From: a virus
IMG/VR virus record: IMGVR_UViG_3300044606_000094
Location: 1-30,506 of that record
Reading direction: 5' to 3' (one strand)
Length of the DNA: 30,506 nt
Each line of letters starts with the position of its first letter. Within the stretch, counting starts at the first letter, position 1. The translations under genes and the position numbers were made by a program. Positions 3,486 through 24,434 of this stretch are shown here, piece by piece. The notes beneath the pieces are model-generated. The model was given only the letters and a program-made list of their open reading frames with translations. It ran no database searches and was not told where the DNA came from.

Positions 3486-4247
3486 TTATTTTTCCTCTAA
3501 TGACAACGATAGATTAAATAATCTTTCTTTCCTATTAATATTAAAATTAGGAGCATTTACTATTTGAAACTCATAAATATCAGAAATATTAAAATCTTGA
3601 TAAAATATAACTATTATAAATTCATTCTGTTTCATATAAGGCAATAAAATATTTAGATTGTCCAATGATACATTTTCAATTGATAATTTACCTGATACTT
3701 TTGTCCATTCTTTCCAAGAGACTAATTTACCACCAGCCAATCTATAATCATTACCACGCATAGAATCATTTCTTGAAAAATCACTCAACCATTCAGGCTC
3801 TTCAAGAATTGATTTACAGATTTTTAATTCTCCGATTTGTTTTTCTTGATTAGCTATTTGCGTGGTTTTACAATTTAACCTAATTCTGCTGACAGGAATA
3901 GGAGGAGGTTGTGTAATTTCAATAATTGTGTATGCTTCGTTTTCAATTATCAATCCAGCCCCTGGGATATTAATCCAATCTGTGCCATTGTAATATTCAA
4001 AAGTAACAAATTTTAGATTATGATTTAAAATTATTATTCTATTAAAATCTCTGTTTATTTCCTCACCTTGCCAATTTTTGAAAGTGATATCTATATGCTC
4101 TATTATATTATCATTAGAACCTTCACTTACCCATTTAGTAGCCTGATTTTGGTCAAACAAATAATTTTTAGTAGCAGACCCAGATGTAGGTTCTATACTA
4201 CAATATTCATTTATATAATTTTCACTACATATTTTAATACCGTTCAT
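3486..4247 (-). CDS. Distal tail protein (Dit-like) or minor tail protein
   Basis: 253-aa ORF directly downstream of the tape-measure gene; assignment by position and size. Confidence 0.4.
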   Translation of the reverse strand: MNGIKICSENYINEYCSIEPTSGSATKNYLFDQNQATKWVSEGSNDNIIEHIDITFKNWQGEEINRDFNRIIILNHNLKFVTFEYYNGTDWINIPGAGLIIENEAYTIIEITQPPPIPVSRIRLNCKTTQIANQEKQIGELKICKSILEEPEWLSDFSRNDSMRGNDYRLAGGKLVSWKEWTKVSGKLSIENVSLDNLNILLPYMKQNEFIIVIFYQDFNISDIYEFQIVNAPNFNINRKERLFNLSLSLEEK

Positions 4248-6133
4248 ATAGTTGTATTACCTGCCTTTTTAAGTCCAACCTTATAATTTACCTTTGCTAA
4301 TTCAACAGCTGATAGAACGCCTGACCTTGTAGCCTTTGCAAGTTTATCAGCTATCACTGATATATCTGTTTCAGATGTCCCGCCTATTGTTATGTTTTGT
4401 GAAAGGGTTATGTTAGGAGCTCCTATTCCAGCACCTGCACCTGCAGGGATAAGTGAGGATGGCATAGGAACAGGATTATTCTTAATAGAATTAACCACAT
4501 CAGCAGGGATAACCTCCTCGCCTTTATGTAATAGATACGGTCCCGTTTCAGGTATATATCCACCTTCTTTACGAGTGCCTAACAAAAATTTCTCTGCCAT
4601 ACCACCAAACCCTAATCCAGTCAGAGCCTTAAATAATAACCATTTTGCTATCATCTGTGAAACCATAGAGATAAAAGAATTTAAAATGCTTTTAAAAATA
4701 CCACTTAATAATTTTTTAAAATTGTCAAACATATTTCCTGATGACTTTATAAATGTTTCTATTGCTGATGACATTCCAGATATTGTAGATGACCACATCG
4801 CATCCCACGCCTGTGCCCATCCCATACCTGATGATTTCATTCTATCAATAGATTGCAAGAATGACCCTGCCATAGTCGCATTATCACGAGCATATATTTC
4901 CTGAGCTCTAATCATAAGAGCTTCCTTTTGCTCTAATGTTTTCTCATCCCAAGAACCCTGCTCACCATATATAAATTGTAAATAACTTAATTCTGCCTCA
5001 CCTTTTGCCGATAGATACCATTCATCAACTTCTTTTAATTTTCTTTCTGCTTGTTTTTTTGCTTCTGCTAATTCCTCTTCATTTATTGTAGGTGCAGGTT
5101 TTGCTGCAGGTTTTTCAAGAGGTTTAGGTGCAGGTTTTGCTGCAGGTTTTGCAGCATTCTCTTTTGCTATTGCTTTTTCTAATTCTATTTTTGTATCAGT
5201 TAAATTTTTTAAAGTAGTAGAATAATCAAGCCACTGCTTATTTGATATAACATTTGATGTTTGTGCTTGTAAATCTATAATCTTTTGTAAATTTGCTCTA
5301 TATATTTTTATTTGCTCATTAGTAGCATCAAGTCTTATTTCATTCAAACTTTTACCAGCATTACTTGCTCTCTCTTCTGATTTTGTTATTTCTTCAAACC
5401 AGCCAGTTACAGATTCTAATTTTTCTAACCAAAAATCTATTACAGGTATTAATTCCTTTCCAATTCTTTCCTTTAAATCACTTATTCTATTTTCAAAAAC
5501 TTTTAATTTACCGCTTGTTGTTTCTGCTTCTGTTGTAGCGATATTAAATCCATCAGCCAAAAGTTTAGTAACAGCTGCAGCCTTCTCTGTTTCGTCTGTC
5601 ATAGAGCGGAGCTGAGGGATATATCGCTGAAGCATCGTATAATCACCTTGACCAGCAAGAGCGACCATTTTAATAGCACTATTCAAATCAACACCATATG
5701 CCTTTGAAAGTCCAATCGCTTGTTTTGTAGCTTCCCCTATCTTATCAGCAGATATGCCCATTGACAAACCTAACTGCATTACAGCAAGAGCATCCTCATC
5801 GCTTACAGTAGTTATCTTTTGGATTTCAGAAGCTAAATTTTGCAATTGATTAGAAAGCGAATCGCTATATATTCCTTGTGAACGAAGTTGCTGATTAAGA
5901 CGAGCAACAGCTTCCTCTGACTTTGCATATTCATTCCAGCAATCTTTTGCAAAGTCTATTGTTTTATATATTGCAGCACCGCCTGCGAATAAACCACCGA
6001 TTTTTGTGAATGTAGATTTTAAATTTGATGCTGAATCATCAGTTTGATTGATATGACTTTTTGCTTCTTCCAAACCTTTCGGGTCAAATAGAGTTCCAAG
6101 TCGTATGTAGAATTTAGCGAATTCTCCAGCCAT
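4244..6133 (-). CDS. Tail tape measure protein
   Basis: 629-aa, helix-rich, with a low-complexity AAKPAAKPAPKPLEKPAAKPAP stretch; lies between the chaperone pair and distal tail genes. Confidence 0.8.
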   Translation of the reverse strand: MAGEFAKFYIRLGTLFDPKGLEEAKSHINQTDDSASNLKSTFTKIGGLFAGGAAIYKTIDFAKDCWNEYAKSEEAVARLNQQLRSQGIYSDSLSNQLQNLASEIQKITTVSDEDALAVMQLGLSMGISADKIGEATKQAIGLSKAYGVDLNSAIKMVALAGQGDYTMLQRYIPQLRSMTDETEKAAAVTKLLADGFNIATTEAETTSGKLKVFENRISDLKERIGKELIPVIDFWLEKLESVTGWFEEITKSEERASNAGKSLNEIRLDATNEQIKIYRANLQKIIDLQAQTSNVISNKQWLDYSTTLKNLTDTKIELEKAIAKENAAKPAAKPAPKPLEKPAAKPAPTINEEELAEAKKQAERKLKEVDEWYLSAKGEAELSYLQFIYGEQGSWDEKTLEQKEALMIRAQEIYARDNATMAGSFLQSIDRMKSSGMGWAQAWDAMWSSTISGMSSAIETFIKSSGNMFDNFKKLLSGIFKSILNSFISMVSQMIAKWLLFKALTGLGFGGMAEKFLLGTRKEGGYIPETGPYLLHKGEEVIPADVVNSIKNNPVPMPSSLIPAGAGAGIGAPNITLSQNITIGGTSETDISVIADKLAKATRSGVLSAVELAKVNYKVGLKKAGNTTI

Positions 6134-16031: not shown

Positions 16032-16298
16032 TTAATTTATTAGTGTGAAAACTATTTTTTCAAAAATACCAGTATAATTTGGATAGAGATTATCATAAAC
16101 CTCCTTCATTTCAGGAGGGATTAAAAATTGTGTCTTATCAATTATTTTTACTTTGGCGAAAGGTGGACGTGGTCCTACTGTTAAAGTAATAATTTCTCCT
16201 ATATTAGGATTTCTGTTACTTTTTTTACGAATAGTATAATTTTTTTCACCTGACAATATTGGTTTAACATATTTCTCTTTGAACCATAAAGATTTCAT
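16032..16298 (-). CDS. ASCH (PUA-like) domain protein
   Basis: 88-aa; KYVKPILSGEKNYTIRK resembles the ASCH core; strong RBS AGGAGG; start overlaps the stop of the upstream gene (ATGA). Confidence 0.55.
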   Translation of the reverse strand: MKSLWFKEKYVKPILSGEKNYTIRKKSNRNPNIGEIITLTVGPRPPFAKVKIIDKTQFLIPPEMKEVYDNLYPNYTGIFEKIVFTLIN

Positions 16299-17377
16299 TT
16301 TCTACCTCCTATATATCTAAATGAAGCCGTAAGTCTCCTAAAAGATGAAATTTTTTTATGCATAATATTATTAGGAGTACAATGTCCTAATCTCCTTAAT
16401 TGCCATTTAGGACTTCTTGAACGATGAAAAATCATAGCAGGATGAGATGTTGTAGATATAAAAATAAATCCTTTTTTAGTTAAATAATTACCTAACCATT
16501 CTGATAATATATTGCCTATTCCAAGCCCCTGATAATCTGGTAAAACTACTGTTCTATGTTCTCTTTTATACTTCATACTTGAAGAATGAGGAAAATGAAT
16601 ATAACTGGTAAAAGCAACTGGTTTATTTTCCCAATAAGCAACAAAACATTGTGCTTGATCCGCTATATCAGCACTTAAATAATGATTTCCTCTAAAAATT
16701 TTCCACATACTTCTATCTGTTTTATAGATTTTGAGTTTAATTTTGGGGCGTCCTTGAAGAGACCTCCAATTAAATTCATTTTTTGTAACATCATAAATCC
16801 AATCAGGTTGTAACCATTCAATAATATCATAATGACAAGATAATAAAACTATTTTTTTATCTGGAAAATTTTTACGAAAAACTTTTTGAAGACAATGAGA
16901 TACTGTTTTTGCAACATCTCTATCTATAACAGAAGTAAATTCATCTATTACTATATTCTTATATTCGCTTAATATAACTCGCACCAAATCTACCCTAAAT
17001 TTTTGTCCATTTGAAAGTGTATGCCAAGATTTAAGCCACGCTACTGGAGAACTTAAACCAATATTATTTAATACTTCTATAATTTTTTTTATTGGAATAT
17101 CTTTATTAAAATCATTTAAAAAAGAATCATCTTTTTTCCATTTAAATCCTGTTATCATTTTAAAATCTTTAAAAATCTCAGAAGCAATAACTGTTTTACC
17201 TGAACCTGAATTACCAACAATTAATCCTATATTCCATTTTTTATTTTCTAATGGCAATGAAACATCCCATTCGTGTTTTACTTCAGTCATATTAGGAATA
17301 TCAAATATTCCAATTACACTATCAACTCTATAACTCTTTTTCACTGGAGTGGTTCTTACAATGTGATAATTCGGCAT
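16295..17377 (-). CDS. ABC-type ATPase domain fused to a GNAT-like acyltransferase domain
   Basis: Walker A GNSGSGKT, ABC signature-like LSNGQKFRVDLVRVIL, Walker B IVIDEF, H-loop-like LLSCHYD; C-terminal VVLPDYQGLGIGNILSEWL resembles GNAT motif A. Confidence 0.55.
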   Translation of the reverse strand: MPNYHIVRTTPVKKSYRVDSVIGIFDIPNMTEVKHEWDVSLPLENKKWNIGLIVGNSGSGKTVIASEIFKDFKMITGFKWKKDDSFLNDFNKDIPIKKIIEVLNNIGLSSPVAWLKSWHTLSNGQKFRVDLVRVILSEYKNIVIDEFTSVIDRDVAKTVSHCLQKVFRKNFPDKKIVLLSCHYDIIEWLQPDWIYDVTKNEFNWRSLQGRPKIKLKIYKTDRSMWKIFRGNHYLSADIADQAQCFVAYWENKPVAFTSYIHFPHSSSMKYKREHRTVVLPDYQGLGIGNILSEWLGNYLTKKGFIFISTTSHPAMIFHRSRSPKWQLRRLGHCTPNNIMHKKISSFRRLTASFRYIGGRK

Positions 17378-17880
17378 TTTTTCCCCTTTTTTGTAAATTC
17401 TTCATATATTTCTCTTTGCTCATTTTCATCTTCACAAGTAATAACAACTTCAAAAATAGATATTAACTCTGGTATTTTAATATTTGGTGTATTAACATCT
17501 ATATCAAAGCCAACTTCTACAAGCATTTCTTTTGAAAATTTAGAATTAAGTATTTCCATATCCCAATCTCCGACATTCTTATTTGAACGAAGATTATACT
17601 CTTTCAATTCATTTTCAGTTAACTTTCTGCTTGGAACTCTGACATCAATATATTCATCACCTCTGCCTAAAGCCTGCATTATCTTTAATCTTTGATGACC
17701 TGCGATTATTGTATTGTCAGTATTGATTGCGGGTATTTCAGCAAGATTAAATTTTTCAAGACTTTTAGTCAACTGTTTTTCTTGCTCGGGTGTGATTTTG
17801 CGAGGATTATGTTGGTAAGGTATCAAATCTGATATCTTCCTTTTTTCTGTTTTCCAGAATAAACTTTTATTTTTTTTCAT
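17356..17880 (-). CDS. ParB-like nuclease domain protein
   Basis: LIPYQHNPRKITPEQ...IPAINTDNTIIAGHQRLKIMQALG matches the ParB N-terminal (sulfiredoxin-like) core; overlaps the start of the next gene by 22 nt. Confidence 0.7.
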   Translation of the reverse strand: MKKNKSLFWKTEKRKISDLIPYQHNPRKITPEQEKQLTKSLEKFNLAEIPAINTDNTIIAGHQRLKIMQALGRGDEYIDVRVPSRKLTENELKEYNLRSNKNVGDWDMEILNSKFSKEMLVEVGFDIDVNTPNIKIPELISIFEVVITCEDENEQREIYEEFTKKGKKCRIITL

Positions 17881-18095
17881 ATTAATTTTATCCTATCTTT
17901 TATTTTATCATTTTTTAATAGAGTTTCAAAAACATCATTTGTTATCATAAAAAACATTAAAGAAATATGCTTGCCATAATTTATCAAATAACATTCACGG
18001 CAAGGATAAACATATTTTTTATTTATAATCAATTCTGCCTTTTCATTATCTAATAAAAACTTCTCTATTTGTTCTATACCAGTTAAATTAATCAT
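17877..18095 (-). CDS. Hypothetical protein
   Basis: 72-aa ORF in a tight gene run. Confidence 0.35.
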   Translation of the reverse strand: MINLTGIEQIEKFLLDNEKAELIINKKYVYPCRECYLINYGKHISLMFFMITNDVFETLLKNDKIKDRIKLI

Positions 18096-18098
18096 ATA

Positions 18099-18374
18099 TT
18101 ACTTCTTTATACTTTTATACCAATCAAACAATTTTTTATTTAACTTGATGATATAGTAATGATTATTTTTACGAGGGTCTTCATAGTCTATCATACCTAT
18201 TTCCCTCATATTTCTCAAATACCTGCTAACAGATAGACATCCATCACCATTAGGTATTATATCCCTCTCAACCCCTTTTGTATGGATCATAAGCATATTA
18301 TTTTTACTCCTATGCTGGATGAGAAACTTAACTATACTTTTTTCTATCTCTGTTTTTTCTGTGAATGAAAACAT
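18099..18374 (-). CDS. Hypothetical protein (possible winged-helix DNA binder)
   Basis: 91-aa basic ORF with RBS AGGAGG. Confidence 0.35.
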   Translation of the reverse strand: MFSFTEKTEIEKSIVKFLIQHRSKNNMLMIHTKGVERDIIPNGDGCLSVSRYLRNMREIGMIDYEDPRKNNHYYIIKLNKKLFDWYKSIKK

Positions 18375-18375
18375 A

Positions 18376-18534
18376 TTAATCCTCCTTTTTATTTACAATC
18401 TTTTCATATATAGATTGTAATTTATTTAACCAAAAATTTATGACAGGAATTAATTCATTTCCAATTGCTTCTTTTAAATCACATAATTTATTATTAAAAT
18501 CTTCCAATTTACCGATTTCATTTTCTTTTTTCAT
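18376..18534 (-). CDS. Small ORF not in the track (about 52 aa, MKKENEIGKLEDFNNKLCDLKEAIGNELIPVINFWLNKLQSIYEKIVNKKED)
   Basis: RBS AAGGAGG then ATG at 18532-18534; fills the whole gap between flanking genes; shares a diverged segment of about 100 bp with the tape-measure gene (5427-5525). Confidence 0.4.
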   Translation of the reverse strand: MKKENEIGKLEDFNNKLCDLKEAIGNELIPVINFWLNKLQSIYEKIVNKKED

Positions 18535-18721
18535 TTTTCCTCCTTTTATAAGCAATTGTTTTATTATATACTAATGTGTAATATTCAGTTCCATCTGATT
18601 TACATCCTTTGCATTTAAAATTGCATTCAAGAATATTACCCTCAATTGTCATAGAATAAAACGATATTTTTCTACCACATACAGGACAAGTGCCATTTAT
18701 TTTTCCTATATATTCTTTCAT
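18518..18721 (-). CDS. Zinc-ribbon small protein
   Basis: 67-aa with CPVCG ... CNFKCKGC cysteine pairs. Confidence 0.45.
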   Translation of the reverse strand: MKEYIGKINGTCPVCGRKISFYSMTIEGNILECNFKCKGCKSDGTEYYTLVYNKTIAYKRRKNEKRK

Positions 18722-18761
18722 TATATTGTTTCTCCAGTGTTAATCAAACTTCTGCCACAAA

Positions 18762-19007
18762 TCAGTAATAAAGTGCTTTAGCAATTTCCTTTGCAATTTC
18801 TACTGCTTTTTTATAAACACTACTCCCTTCTCTTGCTTTATAATCTTTATAAGGAAATTCTGACCATGCAATATATTCATAATTATCATGCGGAAATAAT
18901 TTTACAATTTTTGCATTTTTATCAATGAATATTTCATATTTATGTCCATTAATTATAATATTTCTTTTTTCACCTGCTATTATCTTTCTTAATATTTCTT
19001 TTTTCAT
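18762..19007 (-). CDS. Hypothetical protein
   Basis: 81-aa ORF with RBS AGGAGG. Confidence 0.4.
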   Translation of the reverse strand: MKKEILRKIIAGEKRNIIINGHKYEIFIDKNAKIVKLFPHDNYEYIAWSEFPYKDYKAREGSSVYKKAVEIAKEIAKALYY

Positions 19008-19099
19008 CTTTCCTCCTTATTTTTTATCAACTAACAATTTAAACAAACAGATTATAACTATCATTCCTAAAAAAATATTTAAGTATATAATCATATATT

Positions 19100-19585
19100 T
19101 TACTTATTTATCCTTCTATCTTTACCTTCAATTTTTACAAGCTTACATATTCCTGCTATCCTGCTTGCTATTCTATCATCGTAAACCTTTGCCAATTCTG
19201 ATATAGATAAATTTGAGTTAATAATCAGTGCCTCTGGATTATATAGTGTTCTTTTATCAAGCACTTCATAAACGACAGAATATGAAAACTCGGTCAATTT
19301 CTCAACGCCTATATCATCAATAATCAAATGTCTTTGATTGACAATTTTATTTATATATTCATATTCATCAAGAGCTGTTTTACAAGCCCTGACATCTCTG
19401 ACTATGTCAGATACTTTTTTATATAAGAAATTTCCGAAATGCTTGCCGATGGCAATAGATGTGTATGTTTTACCTACGCCTATGCCACCATAGATATACA
19501 AACCAAATTTCGGATAACCAGAACATTGTGCAATTATTTTTTTAGGTATGTTTTTATAATCAGCATTATTTATCAAATTTAGCAT
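19100..19585 (-). CDS. DnaC/IstB-like AAA+ ATPase (replicative helicase loader)
   Basis: Walker A GGIGVGKT and Walker B LIIDDIG; directly downstream of the initiator gene. Confidence 0.7.
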   Translation of the reverse strand: MLNLINNADYKNIPKKIIAQCSGYPKFGLYIYGGIGVGKTYTSIAIGKHFGNFLYKKVSDIVRDVRACKTALDEYEYINKIVNQRHLIIDDIGVEKLTEFSYSVVYEVLDKRTLYNPEALIINSNLSISELAKVYDDRIASRIAGICKLVKIEGKDRRINK

Positions 19586-20546
19586 ATTTCTCCTCTATTT
19601 CTTTATCTGTCATTTTTATCATATTAGGCAATTTCTTTTTGCCATTGCCAAGATTTATATATCGCCCCTCTAAAACTTTTGGCATATTGGTAGGCCTGAT
19701 AAGCCATTCAAAATCAGCCCGCCACCCGTGATCGTTCTCACCAAGAAGAAAAGGCATATTTTTAACATCATTAAAATATTTCTCCCACCATTCAAGATTA
19801 TTCCTTTCCTCCTTGTTTTCGTTTATCCTTGCCTTAAGACAACTTTTTCGTTGCTTATTAAATATTTTACATTCGGATAGATAACTACCTAAAATATTAT
19901 TATAACTATTTTTAATGTCTTCCAATAACTTATCTATATCATTTAAATTTTGTGATTGTTGTTTTATTGGTTCTGTTGGTTCAGGTTGAGGTTGAGTTTC
20001 AATTTCATTTTTTATCTCTCCCTCTTTGGGGGGTAGGGGGGTATAATCTTTTATATTATTATCATTTATCTTATTATCCTTTATTAGATGGGTCATATTT
20101 GATACTTCTGAATGGTCATTTTTGATACTTCTGAAGGAACATTTTTGATACTTCTGAAGGTTCATATTTGTTAGTTCTGAATTATATTTTTGATAGTTTG
20201 TTTTTTCTGTTAAAATTATAAATCTTATTTTACCACCGCCATTTTTTATTATTGTTTTAGTTTCTATGAAACCATTTTCTTTTAATTCTTTCAGGGCTCT
20301 TTTAATTCTAATTTCATTGACATTGAACATCTTGCATAAATGTTCTGTGCTAAAATAGAATTTATCTGATTTATAACTTATAACAAAAGCCAATATTTTA
20401 AGTGCAGTTCCTGATAGGTCTTCCTGATATAGCCAATCAGGTATAACAAGAAATCTTAACTTAAATAAAGTTTCTTGGCTTTCTTTCAATAATTCTAACT
20501 CTTGCTTATTTATCTTTACCTCATTATTTATATTTTCGTTTTCCAT
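19566..20546 (-). CDS. Replication initiator / replisome organiser (N-terminal winged HTH, C-terminal conserved phage domain)
   Basis: N-terminal HTH-like LSGTALKILAFVISYKS...IRIKRALKELKENGFIE; C-terminal GWRADFEWLIRP...KVLEGRY; iterons embedded in the linker; partner loader gene follows. Confidence 0.6.
   Translation of the reverse strand: MENENINNEVKINKQELELLKESQETLFKLRFLVIPDWLYQEDLSGTALKILAFVISYKSDKFYFSTEHLCKMFNVNEIRIKRALKELKENGFIETKTIIKNGGGKIRFIILTEKTNYQKYNSELTNMNLQKYQKCSFRSIKNDHSEVSNMTHLIKDNKINDNNIKDYTPLPPKEGEIKNEIETQPQPEPTEPIKQQSQNLNDIDKLLEDIKNSYNNILGSYLSECKIFNKQRKSCLKARINENKEERNNLEWWEKYFNDVKNMPFLLGENDHGWRADFEWLIRPTNMPKVLEGRYINLGNGKKKLPNMIKMTDKEIEEKYAKFDK
20093..20200. repeat. Iteron array: about 4.5 tandem copies of a 23-bp unit (CATWTTTGATACTTCTGAA-like), putative replication origin
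   Basis: Tandem copies start at 20093, 20116, 20139, 20162 and 20185, flanked by an AT-rich stretch (20032-20092) and a G-tract GGGGGGTAGGGGGG (20018-20031); the 23-bp period is not a multiple of 3. Confidence 0.6.
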
Positions 20547-20558
20547 TTAGTCCTCCTA

Positions 20559-20798
20559 TTACTTAACTATATCATATGTTTTTTTAAATGTTTTTTCTTT
20601 ACAGATATATTTTTCACCATCAACACCAAACATTAAATAGTCACCTTTTTTACCACGCCTAACACCTTTCTTTGTTTTTACAATAAATCCTTCAGGAAAA
20701 TTAAGTTGTAAGGCATGTATTATCACAGGTTTTTTTCTGCATTTAACAATCCCTTCAAAATTTTCAAGTGTAATCTTATTTGCATTGAATGGTTTCAT
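20559..20798 (-). CDS. Hypothetical protein
   Basis: 79-aa ORF with RBS AGGAGG. Confidence 0.4.
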   Translation of the reverse strand: MKPFNANKITLENFEGIVKCRKKPVIIHALQLNFPEGFIVKTKKGVRRGKKGDYLMFGVDGEKYICKEKTFKKTYDIVK

Positions 20799-20815
20799 AT
20801 TTCCTCCTATTTATT

Positions 20816-21112
20816 TTATATTTCTATCTCAACTTTTCTTTCTTTATTCCACGCAGCATCCATATAAAGACACTTTATTTGATTAATTAGCTTATCTATA
20901 GCATCTTCATTATCCACAAAAAACTTTCCAGATGATGACATACCCTCCATTACTTTCAAATTATACACCAACTGATCAGACCTATTCTCATAACTACTTT
21001 TTATAAATATCTTAGATGTATAAGTTGTATCATTTTCAAGTACCTCAATTATTACCATTCTTTTTCCATTTTCATCGACTTTTTGTTTTACATCCAATAT
21101 TACTTTCATAAA
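20816..21112 (-). CDS. Hypothetical protein (start revised to ATG at 21112, MKVILDV...)
   Basis: RBS AGGAGG 5 nt before this ATG; the longer listed ORF (to 21223) would run through a promoter and a 5'UTR hairpin. Confidence 0.45.
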   Translation of the reverse strand, partial: FMKVILDVKQKVDENGKRMVIIEVLENDTTYTSKIFIKSSYENRSDQLVYNLKVMEGMSSSGKFFVDNEDAIDKLINQIKCLYMDAAWNKERKVEIEI

Positions 21113-21218
21113 TCCTCCTATAAACAAATTGGTGGAGGGAGGATGTAGATGCGAACGAGGACTACATCCCCCCTTAAATTCATTTATCTGTTTTATATGA
21201 TTGTGTTCGCATACTGAA

Positions 21219-21248
21219 ATCATACTAAATTATTTTTATAGTTGTCAA
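21219..21248 (-). promoter_or_regulatory. Sigma70-type promoter P4 (TTGACA, 18 bp, TATGAT)
   Basis: -35 at 21243-21248, -10 at 21219-21224; preceded by a hairpin (21257-21302) and followed by a GC-rich 5'UTR hairpin (21135-21172). Confidence 0.5.
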
Positions 21249-21256
21249 GTTGTAAG

Positions 21257-21302
21257 AGGCAGATGCTGTATGTGTTGCCTTCGGTAGGAAACATCTGCCC
21301 CT
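21257..21302 (-). terminator. Hairpin downstream of gene 21307-21582 (terminator-like, weak U tail)
   Basis: GGCAGATG / CATCTGCC 8-10 bp stem read from sequence, directly before promoter P4. Confidence 0.4.
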
Positions 21303-21306
21303 AAAA

Positions 21307-21582
21307 TTATTCTATATAACTTATTTTTTTATCACCGCCACATAGAGGACATATCCTATCTATATCGTCCTCTACTATTTCGCCATTCTCATCAAGAAAT
21401 GGCTTCATTAAATTATCATCAGGAACATATTCAATATCATAATTATTAATTTCACTTAATTTTTTATACAATTCATTTCCTGTCACATTTCCATATCCAT
21501 CACAAAGAGGACACTCTTCATTTACTTCATAGAATTGTGTCAAGCGATTACCTCTATCCCAAGTATCTGATTTTGTTTTCAT
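21307..21582 (-). CDS. Zinc-ribbon small protein (two CxxC pairs)
   Basis: CPLCDG ... CPLCGG motifs. Confidence 0.45.
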   Translation of the reverse strand: MKTKSDTWDRGNRLTQFYEVNEECPLCDGYGNVTGNELYKKLSEINNYDIEYVPDDNLMKPFLDENGEIVEDDIDRICPLCGGDKKISYIE

Positions 21583-21854
21583 TTGTCCTCCTCTTTTTTA
21601 TATGGAATATTATAAATTTTACAAAGTTTATGTAATTGTGTTTTTGTTAACTGAATATATTTCACATAATCAAAATCAAAATAATTAAAAAACCCAACTT
21701 TAGCATTTCCATTATCATTTAGTATAATGTCAAAATAACTATATTTTAGACCATAATATAGTTCTATAATATAATGTATTTCTTTTTTTAATTGTCCATC
21801 ATTTTTATTTGCTTTTAATTGCTCTATAATTTTATTTAAAGGAATTTCTGTCAT
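21579..21854 (-). CDS. Hypothetical protein
   Basis: 91-aa ORF with RBS AGAGGAGG. Confidence 0.4.
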   Translation of the reverse strand: MTEIPLNKIIEQLKANKNDGQLKKEIHYIIELYYGLKYSYFDIILNDNGNAKVGFFNYFDFDYVKYIQLTKTQLHKLCKIYNIPYKKEEDK

Positions 21855-21991
21855 TACTCCTCCTCTTTATATTTTCTCTTTATCTCTTTCGTTGTTGCAT
21901 ATCTTTTTTTATTATACTTATATAATCTTTTTTTTATTTTTTTATTGATTATTCTGTCAATATTCATTGCATTTATCTTCATAATTACTCC

Positions 21992-22174
21992 TCATTTAGG
22001 CAACCAGAATTTCCAGAATGGCCTGCTATAATGCTTGCAAGGTATCATAGCTATATTCATTGTCTCTTTCCTTGCTATATACATCTCAAGACACATTTTA
22101 AATGAAGAACAATCTTCGCATTGCCTTTGTTTTAATTTCTTTTCTTTACCATTTCCTATTTTTATTTTAAACAT
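21992..22174 (-). CDS. Cys-rich small protein
   Basis: 60-aa with CEDC ... C ... C. Confidence 0.35.
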   Translation of the reverse strand: MFKIKIGNGKEKKLKQRQCEDCSSFKMCLEMYIARKETMNIAMIPCKHYSRPFWKFWLPK

Positions 22175-22188
22175 TTTATCCTCCTTAA

Positions 22189-22818
22189 TTAAACTCTTGT
22201 TATTGTTTTTTTCTTGGCTATAACGCCCGGTAAAATTTCCCTTTCTTGTTTATAAGCTTTGGCCAATCCATTCAGGAAAGGCATATTAATCTCAACTGCA
22301 TTTATATCAGCCTTGCCATCAGCAATAGCTTTTATAAGTGTCATTTTGTCAACAATTTCGGCATACCAAGATATAGAAAAAGAGGCTGATCCTGTTGATT
22401 TCACTGTTTGAATTATCTGAGGGGCCTGAGTTATAGGCCTTCCTGTTTTTTCAGCCTTCTCTACAGACTTTTGGAACTTCTCATCGGCTTTCTTTTGTAA
22501 TGCCTCCCTGCGTGCGTTCTCGGCCGTAACAAAAGCCCCAATCTTTTGTCTTAATTCACTTTCAGCACTTTTAAGAGGATCAATCATTTCATCCCTCAAT
22601 CCTCTTATCTCATCGTAGGCTTCTTTTGCCTTTTTAACAGCAGGGTTTACCTTCTCCTCTATTTTTGTTCTCATTGATTTTATAGCAGAAAGGAATGATG
22701 TCGCCCTTTCTGTGTCCTTCTCTGACTTTATAATTATTGATTTTGCCTCAATAATTATATTCTTGCTTTCATTTGTTAGTTCATTTTTTATTTCACTTGT
22801 TATTATTTCGTTTTCCAT
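22189..22818 (-). CDS. Hypothetical helical protein associated with the recombination module
   Basis: 209-aa charged, coiled-coil-like ORF immediately downstream of the exonuclease gene. Confidence 0.4.
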   Translation of the reverse strand: MENEIITSEIKNELTNESKNIIIEAKSIIIKSEKDTERATSFLSAIKSMRTKIEEKVNPAVKKAKEAYDEIRGLRDEMIDPLKSAESELRQKIGAFVTAENARREALQKKADEKFQKSVEKAEKTGRPITQAPQIIQTVKSTGSASFSISWYAEIVDKMTLIKAIADGKADINAVEINMPFLNGLAKAYKQEREILPGVIAKKKTITRV

Positions 22819-22838
22819 TTTATTCCTCCTATTAGTTT

Positions 22839-23471
22839 TTATTCTATTTCTGACAATTCTTCTTTTTGCTTTCTATAACCGTTGTTTATTTTAATCGTAT
22901 GAGAAGCCAGCAAAGTTATAAATTCGTAAAAATCTCTTTTGCCTTCGTGCTTGACAAATAAGTATTCGTAAGGTGTAAGATATAACACATATCTTTCCTG
23001 CTCTCCACATTCGTGCCTAAAGAGATATTCATATGCGGCAGTTTGCCACTTATGCCATATCTCTTGTTTTAATATATTACAAGTTTTTAAATCAATTAAG
23101 GCAGGGATATTATTTACAAGAGCCAACTTGTCAGCTCTTCCTGCATATAAATATTTTGGACTATATCTCATAGTCTCATTTTGTAAAATTTTCACGGATG
23201 GGTTTTCTTTTAAAAATAAAATATATTGATTATAAAATGGTATCAAAACAGGGTCAAGCGATTCAACTTTAAGCCTGCCCTCATCGTGCCACTGACATGC
23301 CTGATGCACATATTCACCCCGCTTTGCTGCAACCTGCGATGAGAAATTATAAAGATTTAATTCTGCTTTGATGATTTCTGTGACGCTCGGTATGATTATA
23401 CCTTCAGGCGTCATATAAATATGCCCCTTCACTTCAAAACAGGGTTCGTAAATTCTTTTTTTTCTTTTCAT
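22839..23471 (-). CDS. PD-(D/E)XK family exonuclease (RecT partner)
   Basis: GRADKL ... IDLKT ... QTAAYEY fits the D...(D/E)xK...QxxxY nuclease pattern; adjacent to RecT. Confidence 0.6.
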   Translation of the reverse strand: MKRKKRIYEPCFEVKGHIYMTPEGIIIPSVTEIIKAELNLYNFSSQVAAKRGEYVHQACQWHDEGRLKVESLDPVLIPFYNQYILFLKENPSVKILQNETMRYSPKYLYAGRADKLALVNNIPALIDLKTCNILKQEIWHKWQTAAYEYLFRHECGEQERYVLYLTPYEYLFVKHEGKRDFYEFITLLASHTIKINNGYRKQKEELSEIE

Positions 23472-23490
23472 TATTTGCCTTCCCTTCTTT

Positions 23491-23526
23491 TAAAAGGGCA
23501 GACCCATTTAAGAGCCTGCCCCTTTT
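23491..23526 (-). terminator. Hairpin between RecT and the exonuclease gene (terminator- or attenuator-like)
   Basis: GC-rich stem GGGCAGAC / GCCTGCCC with flanking T and A runs on both strands. Confidence 0.4.
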
Positions 23527-23537
23527 AGTCTGTTATC

Positions 23538-24434
23538 TTATTCAGCAGGCTCAATATTAACCACATAATGATATTCGTTATCTTTATATAGTTCTGTTCT
23601 ATATGTTATCTTGCAAGGATAACCAACCGCTGATTCGCAATTACTGACTAATCCCTCATCCTTTACATTGACGAGGAAGAAGTCATCATTAATTTTAAGA
23701 GCCCTTGTTTTTTTACCTTGTTTTAAAGATAAAAACTCATCAGGCACTCCGATGATTTCCTTTAATTCATTTTCTTGTTCTGGTCTTTTTATTTCTTGTT
23801 TTTCTTTTTTATCTTCCTGCTTGTTTTCTTTTTCTTCATTTGTTTGAGGTGCTTTAATATCATCAGCATTGACATTGATTATTTTGCTTTTATCAATATC
23901 AACCATATTGTCTGGAAGTTCGTCAGCAGTGTAAGGCATACCTGAAAACTCGTCAGGAAAGGCCATCCTGAAACCCTGAGCGATGGCTACTTTTTTTAAC
24001 ATCGTTTTAGGCTTATTCATCCACATTGAATTTCCCTGATTATATTCAGAGAACTCTACCTCGTGGACAAGAGGCTTATCCCAATCCTTTCTATAGATAG
24101 TAACCACTGCAGTTAAGCCTTTATTTTTTATATCTCCATTTGTGGTTACTTCCCAACCAGCGAGCTTACCTGTCCTTTCAGCTCTTTTGAGATACACCTC
24201 ATATCCTGTTATGATTGACAACTTCCTTCCGTTCTTTGTTTCATAAGGTATACAATAGATTTCCCTTTTGAAAGGGTTTAATTGGAAGGCAACCGCAACC
24301 TCAACGAATTGCGTTATCTCATTGTCTTTAAGAGTATTAGATAAACCAAAACTCTTAAGATAAGAGATAACTTTTTCAGAAGTTATCATCTCAGTTTGTT
24401 TTTTTTCTGTCAATTCCCTATTTTCATTATTCAT
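23538..24434 (-). CDS. recT: RecT-like single-strand annealing protein
   Basis: QFVEVAVAFQLNPFKREIYCIPY...GYEVYLKRAERTG and MLKKVAIAQGFRMAFPDEF resemble the RecT family; paired with a nuclease gene. Confidence 0.6.
   Translation of the reverse strand: MNNENRELTEKKQTEMITSEKVISYLKSFGLSNTLKDNEITQFVEVAVAFQLNPFKREIYCIPYETKNGRKLSIITGYEVYLKRAERTGKLAGWEVTTNGDIKNKGLTAVVTIYRKDWDKPLVHEVEFSEYNQGNSMWMNKPKTMLKKVAIAQGFRMAFPDEFSGMPYTADELPDNMVDIDKSKIINVNADDIKAPQTNEEKENKQEDKKEKQEIKRPEQENELKEIIGVPDEFLSLKQGKKTRALKINDDFFLVNVKDEGLVSNCESAVGYPCKITYRTELYKDNEYHYVVNIEPAE

What the first reader, a model, noticed from the sequence alone, without database searches (positions are those of the whole stretch)
20018..20200. 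Putative origin of replication inside the initiator gene: five 23-bp iterons, an AT-rich tract and a G6-TA-G6 element
Tandem 23-bp repeats (20093-20200), an adjacent AT-rich stretch and an unusual GGGGGGTAGGGGGG tract (20018-20031) all lie in the linker-coding part of the replication initiator gene. The 23-bp period is not a multiple of 3, so the repeat is a DNA-level feature. The layout parallels ori-lambda within gene O (established knowledge); the assignment here is inference.
Basis: partly seen in the sequence, partly recalled or inferred. Interest (0 to 1): 0.6.

Follow-up and report, generated by a model that had tools for sequence, protein, structure and literature searches.

The report
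Phage replication origin inside initiator gene
The repeats, AT-rich stretch and G6-TA-G6 tract are very probably this phage's replication origin, built like the one inside gene 18 of phage P22; that layout is ordinary, but the G/C tract turns out to be conserved base-for-base in initiator genes of many unrelated phages.

Summary
Window 20087-20201 carries four good 23-bp units plus a half unit (TRF score 129; best of 200 shuffles 82). Next comes a 45-bp tract of 11% GC (20042-20086). G6TAG6 lies at 20028-20041, not 20018-20031. All of it sits in the segment coding the predicted disordered linker (aa 121-200) of a minus-strand O-like initiator (19566-20546), followed by a DnaC/IstB-like loader.

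The origin reading is supported by comparison, not by experiment.
- A 71%-identical relative (L002) has a different recognition helix and a different 23-bp repeat (GACTGGAAG...) at the same place. Its DNA from the AT tract onward is 95-100% identical.
- A third locus with L002's helix type carries the same 9-mer as an inverted pair.
- The region is collinear with the annotated P22 gene 18 origin: iterons, A-rich units, C5TTAC5.

Extra result: the C-tract (T-P-L-P-P) is conserved at nucleotide level. In 37 non-redundant contexts found with a codon-degenerate pattern (GC 0.38-0.71), third positions are almost invariant. Carriers span about 14 N-terminal and 16 C-terminal clusters. Most have phased tandem repeats ending about 52 nt upstream.

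Verdict: a new member of a known kind of origin. The role of the C-tract is unknown.

The parts
19566..20546 (-). Replication initiator gene (326 aa), O-like: N-terminal winged helix, disordered linker, helical C-terminal domain
   Evidence: ORF. Pfam HTH_36 aa 43-94, E 9e-7. PHROG 345 'replication initiation O-like', E 1.3e-28, aa 39-302. BLASTP to HK544 O E 3e-15 and to P22 gp18 E 3e-12. AlphaFold domains.
20187..20444 (-). Coding region of the winged-helix DNA-binding domain (aa 35-120); predicted recognition helix aa 78-90 = 20277-20315
   Evidence: AlphaFold pLDDT 63-88 with H-E-H-H-E-E topology. Foldseek hits to MarR/Lrs14-type winged helices, DnaD-N and plasmid RepA-N are weak, E about 1e-2. 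The helix sequence differs between window/L001 and L002/L003 in step with the repeats.
20087..20203 (-). Iteron array: four 23-bp units (cores 20163-20181, 20140-20158, 20117-20135, 20094-20112) plus a 5' half unit; core TTCAGAAGTATCAAAA(ATG); each core contains the small palindrome (C)TTCAGAA(G)
   Evidence: Core versus spacer substitutions against L001: 4/64 versus 9/28, Fisher p 0.002. Replaced by a different 23-bp repeat in L002.
20042..20086 (-). AT-rich, A-rich (coding strand) tract; three 15-nt units ATAAAnGATAATAAn; presumed DNA unwinding element
   Evidence: 11% GC, tenth least stable 40-mer site of the window. TRF 20042-20084. Aligns with the ACAAAAGACAATAT units of P22 and HK544. 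In 42/42 unrelated carriers of the C-tract the 45 nt upstream are AT-enriched.
20028..20041 (-). C6-TA-C6 on the coding strand (G6TAG6 on +), read as (A)CC CCC CTA CCC CCC = T-P-L-P-P, aa 169-173; nucleotide-level conserved element at the 3' edge of the origin
   Evidence: Position. Five rare codons in a row, joint probability about 3e-7 from the window's own codon usage. Identical in L001 and L002. C5TTAC5 at the same place in P22 and HK544. Third positions invariant in 37 non-redundant contexts.
20016..20027 (-). Purine run AAAGAGGGAGAG following the C-tract; degenerate counterpart of the AAR-GGGGG(G) that follows the C-tract in most other carriers
   Evidence: The hairpin with the C-tract is weak here, -2.8 kcal/mol.
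19647..19946 (-). Coding region of the C-terminal helical domain (aa 201-300), homologous to the C-terminal domain of P22 gp18 / HK97-type O; presumed partner-recruiting domain
   Evidence: pLDDT 71-93. tblastn hits to 143 phage records, all on this part of the protein. BLASTP.
19100..19585 (-). DnaC/IstB-like AAA+ helicase loader gene, overlapping the initiator stop by 20 nt
   Evidence: Pfam IstB_IS21 E 4e-12. PHROG 50 'DnaC-like helicase loader' E 2e-31. Same gene pair in L001.

Best explanation
This is the phage's origin of theta-type replication, embedded in the linker-coding part of its own initiator gene. It is of the P22-gene-18 / HK97-O type, a relative of ori-lambda.

Proposed mechanism:
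1. Inferred from covariation: the winged-helix N-terminal domain of the 326-aa initiator binds the four to five 23-bp iterons. The core is TTCAGAAGTATCAAAA, spaced about two helical turns apart, each with an A5 tract.
2. Inferred by analogy with lambda O: the resulting nucleoprotein complex stresses the adjacent 45-bp, 11%-GC tract, which melts.
3. Inferred from homology and gene order: the C-terminal domain, homologous to that of P22 gp18 and HK97 O, recruits the phage DnaC-like loader encoded next door. With it comes the host replicative helicase, which is placed on the melted tract.
4. The C6-TA-C6 tract is a DNA-level (or RNA-level) element that closes the origin on the side away from the iterons. 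Its conservation is shown here. Its function is not shown. The most likely role is a sequence-defined boundary or landmark of the unwound region.

The amino acids coded by the repeats and the AT tract are passengers in a disordered linker.
For: Gene identity and partner.

The repeat is far beyond chance and occurs only here.

Linker location.

Covariation:
- Window versus L002 nucleotide identity is 61.8% in the N-domain and 45.7% in the iteron segment, but 95.6% in the AT tract, 100% in the C-tract, 97.5% in the rest of the linker and 95.2% in the C-domain.
- L002 has a different repeat of the same 23-bp period, GACTGGAAGAAAA.. x2.7, at the same place.
- L003, whose N-domain is of the L002 type (E 4e-37) but whose C-terminal part is unrelated, carries GACTGGAAG as an inverted pair at the same mid-gene place and nowhere else.

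Purifying selection on cores in all three reading frames: 4/64 core versus 9/28 spacer differences against L001, p 0.002.

Collinearity with a curated origin:
- The P22 rep_origin feature 32840-32984 consists of four iterons (spacing 20/24/23), then 2 x ACAAAAGACAATAT, then ACCCCCTTACCCCCTAAAGGGGG.
- HK544 O has the same layout.
- The TPLPP residues align in BLASTP, and the DNA aligns.

Family-wide architecture around the C-tract:
- 105 of 120 exact-motif occurrences lie in the TPLPP frame in the middle of genes.
- 9 of 10 representative carriers hit replication-initiator PHROGs.
- AT content is enriched upstream in 42/42 contexts. Tandem repeats end 25-100 nt upstream in 30/42, against 6/42 in a downstream control. 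Periods cluster at 10-12, 21-25 and 30-33. The median gap is 52 nt; the window's is about 50.

Nucleotide-level conservation of the C-tract.

From the literature:
- Lambda and Stx origins lie in the middle of O, with iterons plus an AT tract (PMC7466680).
- In-frame deletions in lambda's AT tract kill the origin while the O protein still complements (PMC6022878).
- P22 and phage L carry different repeats inside gene 18 (PMC8022706).
Against: There is no experimental evidence for binding, unwinding or origin firing in this phage or its relatives.

The AT tract is only the tenth least stable site of an AT-rich window.

The iterons lack the long hyphenated dyad symmetry of lambda's. No inverted repeat of 10 nt or more was found; only the short palindrome CTTCAGAAG is present.

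DnaA boxes are not enriched.

Only three close or intermediate relatives were available for the covariation argument.

The P22 origin annotation itself is 'by similarity to lambda'.

The role proposed for the C-tract is a guess. A simple GC clamp would not need an exact sequence. The hairpin with the downstream G run is weak or absent in the window.
Confidence: 0.82

Rival explanations
1. The repeats are neutral slippage products tolerated in a disordered linker, and the true origin lies elsewhere in the genome or outside the window.
For: The linker is predicted to be disordered and is not conserved as protein. The array evolves faster than its flanks: 86% versus 98.8% identity to L001. More distant relatives of the initiator (L005, L006) show no mid-gene repeats.
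Against: Cores are conserved while spacers vary. A different repeat of the same 23-bp period sits at the same place next to a different recognition helix. The same 9-mer recurs with the same helix type in L003. The layout is collinear with the P22 origin. The repeat / AT tract / C-tract architecture recurs in 42 unrelated contexts. No other comparable repeat exists in the window.
Confidence: 0.05
2. The repeats are binding sites of the initiator, or of another regulator, used only for regulation (autoregulation, copy control or exclusion) and not for initiation.
For: Iterons have such control roles in plasmids (established knowledge). Cloned lambda ori/iteron DNA inhibits lambdoid phage replication (abstract of PMC3349717, seen).
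Against: The array is directly followed by an AT-rich tract and the conserved C-tract at the same distance as in P22. No promoter signal above chance lies next to it. There is no second array in the window that could serve as the real origin.
Confidence: 0.05
3. The G6TAG6/C6TAC6 tract is simply the coding sequence of a conserved peptide (N-TPLPP-K/N-GG) that acts in the protein, for example as a hinge or docking motif, and has no DNA-level role.
For: 105 of 120 occurrences are in the TPLPP reading frame. The peptide aligns between the window protein and P22 gp18 / HK544 O.
Against: With a pattern degenerate at every third position, 37 non-redundant contexts (GC 0.38-0.71) still use ACC 37/37, CCC 36/37, YTA 32/37 and CCC 37/37. 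In the motif, CCC makes up 90-93% of Pro codons against 18-22% in the rest of the same ORFs, and YTA makes up 75-100% of Leu codons against 10-26%. In the window it is five rare codons in a row, p about 3e-7. C-domain homologues P0004-P0006 lack the peptide. A few occurrences lie in non-coding DNA next to repeats.
Confidence: 0.1
4. The C-tract is mainly a conserved 'linker' at which homologous recombination swaps origin-specific N-terminal modules and partner-specific C-terminal modules. Alternatively it acts in the mRNA, for example as a ribosome-pausing C/G hairpin that favours cis-action of the nascent initiator.
For: It lies at the junction of 14 N-part and 16 C-part clusters found in 23 combinations. 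In enterobacterial contigs the similarity between different origin types begins exactly at ATACCCCC, and the C6TAC6 and C5TTAC5 variants occur with either upstream type. The strand and frame are fixed relative to the gene.
Against: In the window/L002 pair the breakpoint is about 45-50 nt upstream, at the iteron / AT-tract border, not at the C-tract. Fourteen to 24 nt of identity is a poor substrate for homologous recombination (established knowledge). Conservation across GC 0.26-0.71 and many initiator families argues for a direct function. The hairpin is weak in the window. This reading is not exclusive of a role in the origin.
Confidence: 0.15

Closest known systems
Origin inside gene 18 of Salmonella phage P22 (GenBank rep_origin 32840-32984) and the equivalent region of HK97 / HK544 gene O
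   Same: Same order in the coding direction: winged-helix N-domain coding, then 4-5 direct repeats at about 20-24 bp spacing, then 37-50 bp of A-rich DNA made of 14-15-nt units (ACAAAAGACAATAT versus ATAAAnGATAATAAn), then C5-6-YTA-C5-6 read as TPLPP, then a homologous C-terminal domain. BLASTP gives E 3e-12 to gp18 and 3e-15 to HK544 O.
   Different: The iteron sequence and the N-terminal domain sequence are unrelated at BLAST level. P22 and HK97 pair the initiator with a DnaB-type helicase gene, whereas here the partner is a DnaC/IstB-like loader. The G5 run after the C-tract is degenerate here (GAGGGAGAG). The genome is 32% GC, and no DNA similarity to any GenBank phage was found.
ori-lambda inside gene O (lambda and Stx phages)
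   Same: The origin lies in the middle of the initiator gene. Four to six iterons are followed on the 3' side by an AT-rich tract of about 39-40 bp. N-terminal domain and iterons give specificity, and the C-terminal part recruits the helicase-loading partner (PMC7466680, PMC6022878).
   Different: Lambda has no C-tract after the AT tract. Its iterons are 18-bp hyphenated palindromes (PMC6022878). Its partner is lambda P, not an AAA+ DnaC-like protein.
Bacillus phage SPP1 oriL within gene 38 (G38P initiator, G39P loader, G40P helicase)
   Same: An initiator binds repeats that lie inside its own gene, next to an AT-rich region, with a loader gene following (established knowledge; see PMC5737612 and PMC6316719, listed).
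   Different: No sequence relationship was tested or seen. SPP1 encodes its own helicase and has a second G38P-binding site (oriR). No second copy of the iterons exists in this window.
Iteron-type plasmid origins (pPS10, R6K, RK2, F, P1)
   Same: Direct repeats of about 20 nt at about 22-bp spacing are bound by a winged-helix initiator, with an adjacent AT-rich unwinding element (established knowledge; review PMC4980987, listed).
   Different: Plasmid iterons normally lie outside the rep gene, and DnaA boxes are usual there. The initiator here gives no Rep_3-type Pfam hit, and DnaA boxes are not enriched.
Conserved sequence block 2 of vertebrate mitochondrial control regions
   Same: The string CCCCCCTACCCCCC is the same. 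The only literature hits for it were fish, bird and turtle mitochondrial control regions. Established knowledge: the CSB II G-run is involved in primer formation at the heavy-strand origin.
   Different: This is a look-alike recalled from the literature search, not a tested relationship. In mitochondria the functional transcript is G-rich, whereas here the mRNA is the C-rich strand. No antisense promoter above chance was found.

Membership tests
Lambdoid-type origin embedded in the initiator gene (lambda O / P22 gene 18 kind) | Array of three or more direct repeats at about two helical turns spacing, inside the initiator gene between the DNA-binding and C-terminal domains | tested here: met
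   Four units plus a half unit of 23 bp at 20087-20203, in the region coding aa 116-153.
Lambdoid-type origin embedded in the initiator gene (lambda O / P22 gene 18 kind) | AT-rich unwinding tract of about 40 bp directly 3' (in the coding direction) of the last repeat | tested here: met
   20042-20086, 11% GC, 2.4 sd less stable than the window mean, but only tenth among sites in the window.
Lambdoid-type origin embedded in the initiator gene (lambda O / P22 gene 18 kind) | Two-domain initiator with an O-like C-terminal domain, followed by a helicase or helicase-loader gene | tested here: met
   PHROG 345 E 1e-28. BLASTP to HK544 O 3e-15 and to P22 gp18 3e-12. DnaC-like gene 19100-19585.
Lambdoid-type origin embedded in the initiator gene (lambda O / P22 gene 18 kind) | Repeat sequence co-varies with the N-terminal domain (origin specificity) | tested here: met
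   Window/L001 versus L002/L003: recognition helix NEIRIKRALKELK goes with TTCAGAAGTATC, and SEKSIS..VN.LK goes with GACTGGAAG. Only two specificity types were available.
Lambdoid-type origin embedded in the initiator gene (lambda O / P22 gene 18 kind) | Each iteron is an 18-19-bp hyphenated inverted repeat (lambda proper) | tested here: not met
   No inverted repeat of 10 nt or more. Only the 9-nt palindrome CTTCAGAAG lies at the unit junction, read directly from the sequence. This feature defines lambda's own iterons, not the kind: phage L gene 18 carries six imprecise 11-bp direct repeats (PMC8022706).
Lambdoid-type origin embedded in the initiator gene (lambda O / P22 gene 18 kind) | Initiator binds the repeats, and the segment supports initiator-dependent replication | not testable with these tools
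   Needs EMSA or footprinting and a plasmid origin assay.
P22/HK97-type subgroup marked by the C-tract | C5-6-YTA-C5-6 in the T-P-L-P-P frame about 35-60 nt after the last repeat | tested here: met
   20028-20041, about 50 nt after the last core. The family median is 52 nt.
P22/HK97-type subgroup marked by the C-tract | AAR followed by a G5-6 run directly after the C-tract | tested here: not met
   The window has AAA GAG GGA GAG. The G run was imposed as GGNGG by the search pattern, and the free third position is G in 35/37 contexts. I treat this as a frequent but not defining feature.
Iteron plasmids (Rep_3 / RepA-type initiators) | Rep_3-type two-winged-helix initiator, iterons outside the gene, DnaA box(es) | tested here: not met
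   No Rep_3 Pfam hit. The iterons lie inside the gene. DnaA-box-like sites number 14 against 12.3 expected.

The most novel reading that the evidence does not exclude
The C5-6-YTA-C5-6 tract, usually followed by AAR-G5-6, is a sequence-specific core element of a very widespread class of phage origins embedded in initiator genes. It is conserved base-for-base from P22 to phages of 26-71% GC and across at least 14 unrelated N-terminal and 16 C-terminal initiator modules. Because the phage proteins around it differ, it would have to be read by something common to all hosts, such as the helicase, primase or RNA polymerase, or by a DNA/RNA structure of its own. Candidate structures are a C-run/G-run hairpin or a fold-back triplex. 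It could also work in a CSB-II-like way, setting a primer 3' end. In that reading it marks where unwinding stops or where the first primer or helicase is placed. I found no description of this element in the searchable literature.
Probability: 0.35. Interest if true: 0.75.

Novelty: new member of a known kind. Interest (0 to 1): 0.5.

Why it matters
For this phage, the result locates the replication origin and predicts the initiator's recognition sequence and recognition helix. That is useful for annotation and for building replicons for an uncultured, AT-rich host.

It finds in-gene origins in many otherwise unrelated phage initiator genes.

Its conservation at synonymous sites poses a concrete, testable question about origin mechanics. 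The question can be addressed in a tractable model (P22 or HK97) by synonymous recoding.

Tried and rejected
Searches that found little or nothing:
- blastn of 17000-23500 against GenBank phages: no match.
- Scans of IMG/VR with the protein, with the linker DNA and with the iteron pair: nothing.
- The single metagenome scan only re-found L002. The genome scan found nothing. The host therefore remains unknown and only three informative relatives were available.
- PDB sequence search: no hit.
- Rfam and tRNA scans: nothing in the window.
- Literature search for the motif strings returned only mitochondrial or unrelated papers. Two further searches for descriptions of P22-type origin elements found nothing beyond PMC8022706.

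Hypotheses considered and set aside:
- A stable hairpin or cruciform at the C-tract. The window folds at only -2.8 kcal/mol, and HK544's C5/G5 hairpin is no better than shuffles.
- DnaA-box involvement. There is one perfect box at 20910-20918, but the number of near-matches equals chance.
- An antisense promoter and terminator around the tract (+ strand 19866-19895 and 20021-20041). The counts are not above shuffles.
- A G-quadruplex. There are only two G runs, read directly from the sequence.
- A programmed frameshift at the C runs. Both alternative frames stop within 6-9 codons, but that is expected in AT-rich DNA and the tract is not a known slippery motif (read from the sequence; inference).
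Full report
1. What is in the sequence

The window is 30,506 bp at 31.9% GC. It is a tailed-phage genome segment with all long ORFs on the minus strand. In order these include a RecT-like protein, an exonuclease, the initiator, a DnaC-like loader, a ParB-like protein, then large terminase, portal, major head protein and tape measure.

The finding lies in ORF 19566-20546 (minus strand, 326 aa).
- TRF reports a 23-bp tandem repeat at 20093-20195: 4.5 copies, 81% matches, score 129. This is the top score in the window.
- Two hundred dinucleotide-preserving shuffles gave at most 82, with mean 50.8 and sd 8.4.
- On the coding strand the unit is TTCAGAAGTATCAAAAATG plus four variable bases. Two copies are perfect, one has 1 mismatch and one has 3. 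Chance expectation is 0.05, and no further copy exists in the window.
- A fifth unit on the 5' side keeps only TATCAAAAAT.

Immediately 3' in the coding direction lies a 45-nt tract of 11% GC (20042-20086). It is made of about three 15-nt units. It is 2.4 sd less stable than the window average, but only the tenth such site in this AT-rich DNA.

Then comes CCCCCCTACCCCCC (G6TAG6 on the + strand) at 20028-20041. These are the only G6 runs in the window.

2. The gene

The protein has three parts.
- An N-terminal HTH_36 winged helix covers aa 43-94 (E 9e-7).
- Over aa 39-302 it matches PHROG 345 'replication initiation O-like' (E 1.3e-28).
- Its C-terminal 100-130 residues match O/gp18-type proteins of 143 GenBank phages.

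Direct BLASTP gives E 3e-15 to HK544 O and 3e-12 to P22 gp18. The next gene (19100-19585) is a DnaC/IstB-like AAA+ loader (PHROG 50, E 2e-31).

An AlphaFold model built on a shallow alignment (mean pLDDT 60) shows three regions:
- a confident winged-helix domain, aa 35-120;
- a segment below pLDDT 50, aa 121-200;
- a confident helical domain, aa 201-300.

Foldseek places the N-domain among MarR/Lrs14-type winged helices. DnaD-N and a plasmid RepA-N are among the weak hits. The iterons, AT tract and C-tract code aa 116-173, which is the linker. Because 23 is not a multiple of 3, successive units are read in different frames. Units 1 and 4 share a frame and give SELTNMN and SEVSNMT (read directly from the sequence).

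3. Evidence that the repeats are initiator binding sites

The large protein database holds two close relatives: P0001 at 92% identity and P0002 at 71%. Their contigs are L001 and L002.

L001 has the same array, with four perfect 16-nt cores and different spacers. Between the window and L001 the cores differ at 4 of 64 positions and the spacers at 9 of 28 (Fisher p 0.002).

L002 is a mosaic. Its nucleotide identity to the window, segment by segment, is as follows:

| Segment | Identity to window |
|---|---|
| N-domain | 61.8% |
| Iteron segment | 45.7% |
| AT tract | 95.6% |
| C-tract | 100% |
| Rest of linker | 97.5% |
| C-domain | 95.2% |

At the place of the window's iterons, L002 has a different repeat of the same period: GACTGGAAGAAAA.., 2.7 copies of 23 bp.

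A third locus, L003, has an N-domain of the L002 type (E 4e-37; its predicted recognition helix reads SEKSIS..VN.LK, against NEIRIKRALKELK in the window). Its C-terminal part is unrelated. It carries GACTGGAAG as an inverted pair at the same mid-gene place, upstream of an AT-rich tract. That 9-mer occurs nowhere else in L002, L003 or L004, and is absent from the origin regions of L001 and the window; the window's only match, allowing one mismatch, is at 23910.

So the repeat sequence follows the recognition helix, not the rest of the gene. This is the pattern known for lambdoid O proteins and their iterons (PMC8022706).

4. Collinearity with a curated origin

In P22 (NC_002371) the record annotates rep_origin 32840-32984 inside gene 18. 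That stretch contains, in order:
- four repeats at spacings of 20, 24 and 23 nt (32836-32924);
- two units of ACAAAAGACAATAT;
- ACCCCCTTACCCCCTAAAGGGGG, so the annotated origin ends exactly at the G5 run.

HK544 O has the same layout. In both, the C-tract is read as T-P-L-P-P and aligns with TPLPP of the window protein. The AT tract and C-tract also align at DNA level.

Lambda's own origin has iterons and the related ACAAAAGACACTAT.. tract, but no C-tract. The window's origin is therefore of the P22/HK97 type. Its partner differs: a DnaC-like loader here, against a DnaB-type helicase gene in P22, HK97 and HK544.

5. The G6TAG6 tract is conserved as nucleotides

In the window the tract is ACC CCC CTA CCC CCC. 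Within the window's ORFs, CCC is 5.6% of Pro codons, ACC is 4.6% of Thr codons and CTA is 7.1% of Leu codons. The joint probability of those five codons is about 3e-7.

Exact-pattern scan.
- 105 of 120 occurrences are in the TPLPP frame, with at least 60 open codons on both sides. Typically there are 130-220 codons upstream and 95-160 downstream.
- Locus GC ranges from 0.26 to 0.69.
- The parts before and after the motif fall into 14 and 16 BLASTP clusters, in 23 combinations.
- Nine of ten representatives hit PHROGs annotated as replication initiation, primosomal, DnaD-like or O-like proteins. Pfam N-domains include DUF1376, Lin1244_N and HTH_36.

Codon-degenerate scan. To remove the bias of an exact pattern, I scanned with ACNCCNYTNCCNCCNAARGGNGG. 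Among 37 non-redundant in-frame contexts (GC 0.38-0.71), the third positions were as follows:

| Codon | Count |
|---|---|
| ACC | 37/37 |
| CCC (first Pro) | 36/37 |
| YTA | 32/37 |
| CCC (second Pro) | 37/37 |
| CCC (third Pro) | 29/37, with CCT in 6 |
| GGG | 35/37 |

The flanks show no comparable conservation.

Within the same ORFs, codon use inside and outside the motif differs sharply:

| Codon | In the motif | Rest of the same ORFs |
|---|---|---|
| Pro = CCC | 90-93% | 18-22% |
| Leu = YTA | 75-100% | 10-26% |
| Thr = ACC | 100% | 33-35% |

C-domain homologues that lack the tract (P0004-P0006) also lack TPLPP. L005 and L006 lack mid-gene repeats as well. A few occurrences of the tract lie in non-coding DNA next to short repeats. 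A peptide-only explanation is therefore unlikely.

6. A common architecture

I analysed 42 non-redundant carriers of the tract, excluding the window's relatives, P22 and HK544.
- The 45 nt upstream are richer in AT than the locus in 42 of 42 cases (mean +0.19).
- The 30 nt upstream are purine-rich on the coding strand (0.68).
- A tandem repeat of period 10 or more ends 25-100 nt upstream in 30 of 42. In an equally long downstream control the figure is 6 of 42.
- Periods cluster at 10-12 (20 cases), 21-25 (7) and 30-33 (3), close to multiples of a helical turn.
- The median gap to the tract is 52 nt (IQR 41-59).

The window fits this architecture, with a 23-bp period, a gap of about 50 nt and an 11% GC tract.

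7. Mechanism and what remains open

Steps inferred from homology and covariation:
- The N-domain binds the iterons.
- The complex melts the AT tract.
- The C-domain brings in the DnaC-like loader with the host helicase.

The lambda literature supports the logic. The origin lies in the middle of O (PMC7466680). In-frame deletions in lambda's AT tract destroy the origin while O protein still complements (PMC6022878).

The function of the C-tract is not established. Its position at the sharp AT-to-GC transition suggests a boundary or landmark of the unwound region. Its exact sequence suggests recognition by something common to many hosts, or a defined structure. A hairpin with the following G run is weak in the window.

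It also coincides with module junctions. In enterobacterial contigs the similarity between different origin types starts exactly at ATACCCCC, and the two variants of the tract occur with either upstream type. A role as a recombination linker, or an RNA-level role, is therefore not excluded.

The identical 14-mer is CSB-2 of vertebrate mitochondrial control regions. This is a lead, not a test.

8. Verdict

The origin is a new member of a known kind.

The nucleotide-level conservation of the C-tract across initiator families is the part I did not expect, and I found no description of it.

Noticed in passing
L048 6538-7148 (also L016, L060, L124): The same ATACCCCCCTACCCCC(C/T) tract occurs in apparently non-coding DNA of 26-30% GC contigs. 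In L048 it lies between divergent ORFs, downstream of GGTTGAAAGATA-like short repeats. This may be an intergenic origin using the same element.
   Followed up: partly
L003 981-999 and 1054-1097: The locus has a perfect inverted pair of L002's iteron core (CTTCCAGTC CG GACTGGAAG), followed by a 45-nt AT tract. Its C/G element is a variant: C7, 16 nt, C6, AAATGATT, G6. TRF finds no tandem repeat here, so a single palindromic site may suffice in this relative.
   Followed up: partly
L008 2605-2685: A distant C-domain relative (P0006, followed by a DnaB-like gene) has two 27-nt copies of CCAGAAGTCCGGA..CCTCTGG, each with inverted ends, spaced 54 nt apart in mid-gene. It has no C-tract.
   Followed up: no
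window 20087-20203 versus L001 634-736: The iteron array diverges faster than its surroundings: 86% identity against 98.8% in the N-domain. Almost all changes are in spacers, and the window's outer units are decaying while L001's four cores are perfect.
   Followed up: yes
window 20910-20918 (+): A single perfect DnaA box TTATCCACA lies about 0.7 kb upstream of the iterons, inside ORF 20816-21223. Near-matches in the window are at chance level.
   Followed up: partly
window 19866-19895 (+) and 20021-20041 (+): A promoter-like site (TTTACA-18-TAAAAT, 10/12) lies antisense within the initiator gene and points toward G6TAG6. A terminator-like hairpin plus T-run sits at the tract itself, and TATAAT directly follows the G run. 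The counts are not above shuffles.
   Followed up: partly
window 16295-17377 (-) and 17356-17880 (-): A 360-aa protein combines an ABC-type ATPase region with a GNAT acetyltransferase domain (PHROG 11143, E 2e-97). It overlaps a ParB-like nuclease-domain protein and lies between the replication and packaging modules.
   Followed up: no
window 5093-5156: A 12-bp tandem repeat (5.3 copies, TRF score 79) lies inside the tape-measure gene 4244-6133. The period is a multiple of 3, so it is probably a coding repeat.
   Followed up: no
L011-L130 (enterobacterial IMG/VR contigs): Two origin types occur: HK544-like iterons ATTAGCCAAGTCGGCTAA, and a 12-bp-period GAAGCCGCACA type. They share an almost identical C-module that begins exactly at the C-tract. 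The C6TAC6 and C5TTAC5 variants are found with either upstream type (for example L064/L075 and L093/L123), which indicates crossovers at or next to the tract.
   Followed up: partly
literature search: The only papers containing CCCCCCTACCCCCC describe CSB-2 of fish, bird and turtle mitochondrial control regions. The string is identical to the phage element, and any relationship is untested.
   Followed up: no
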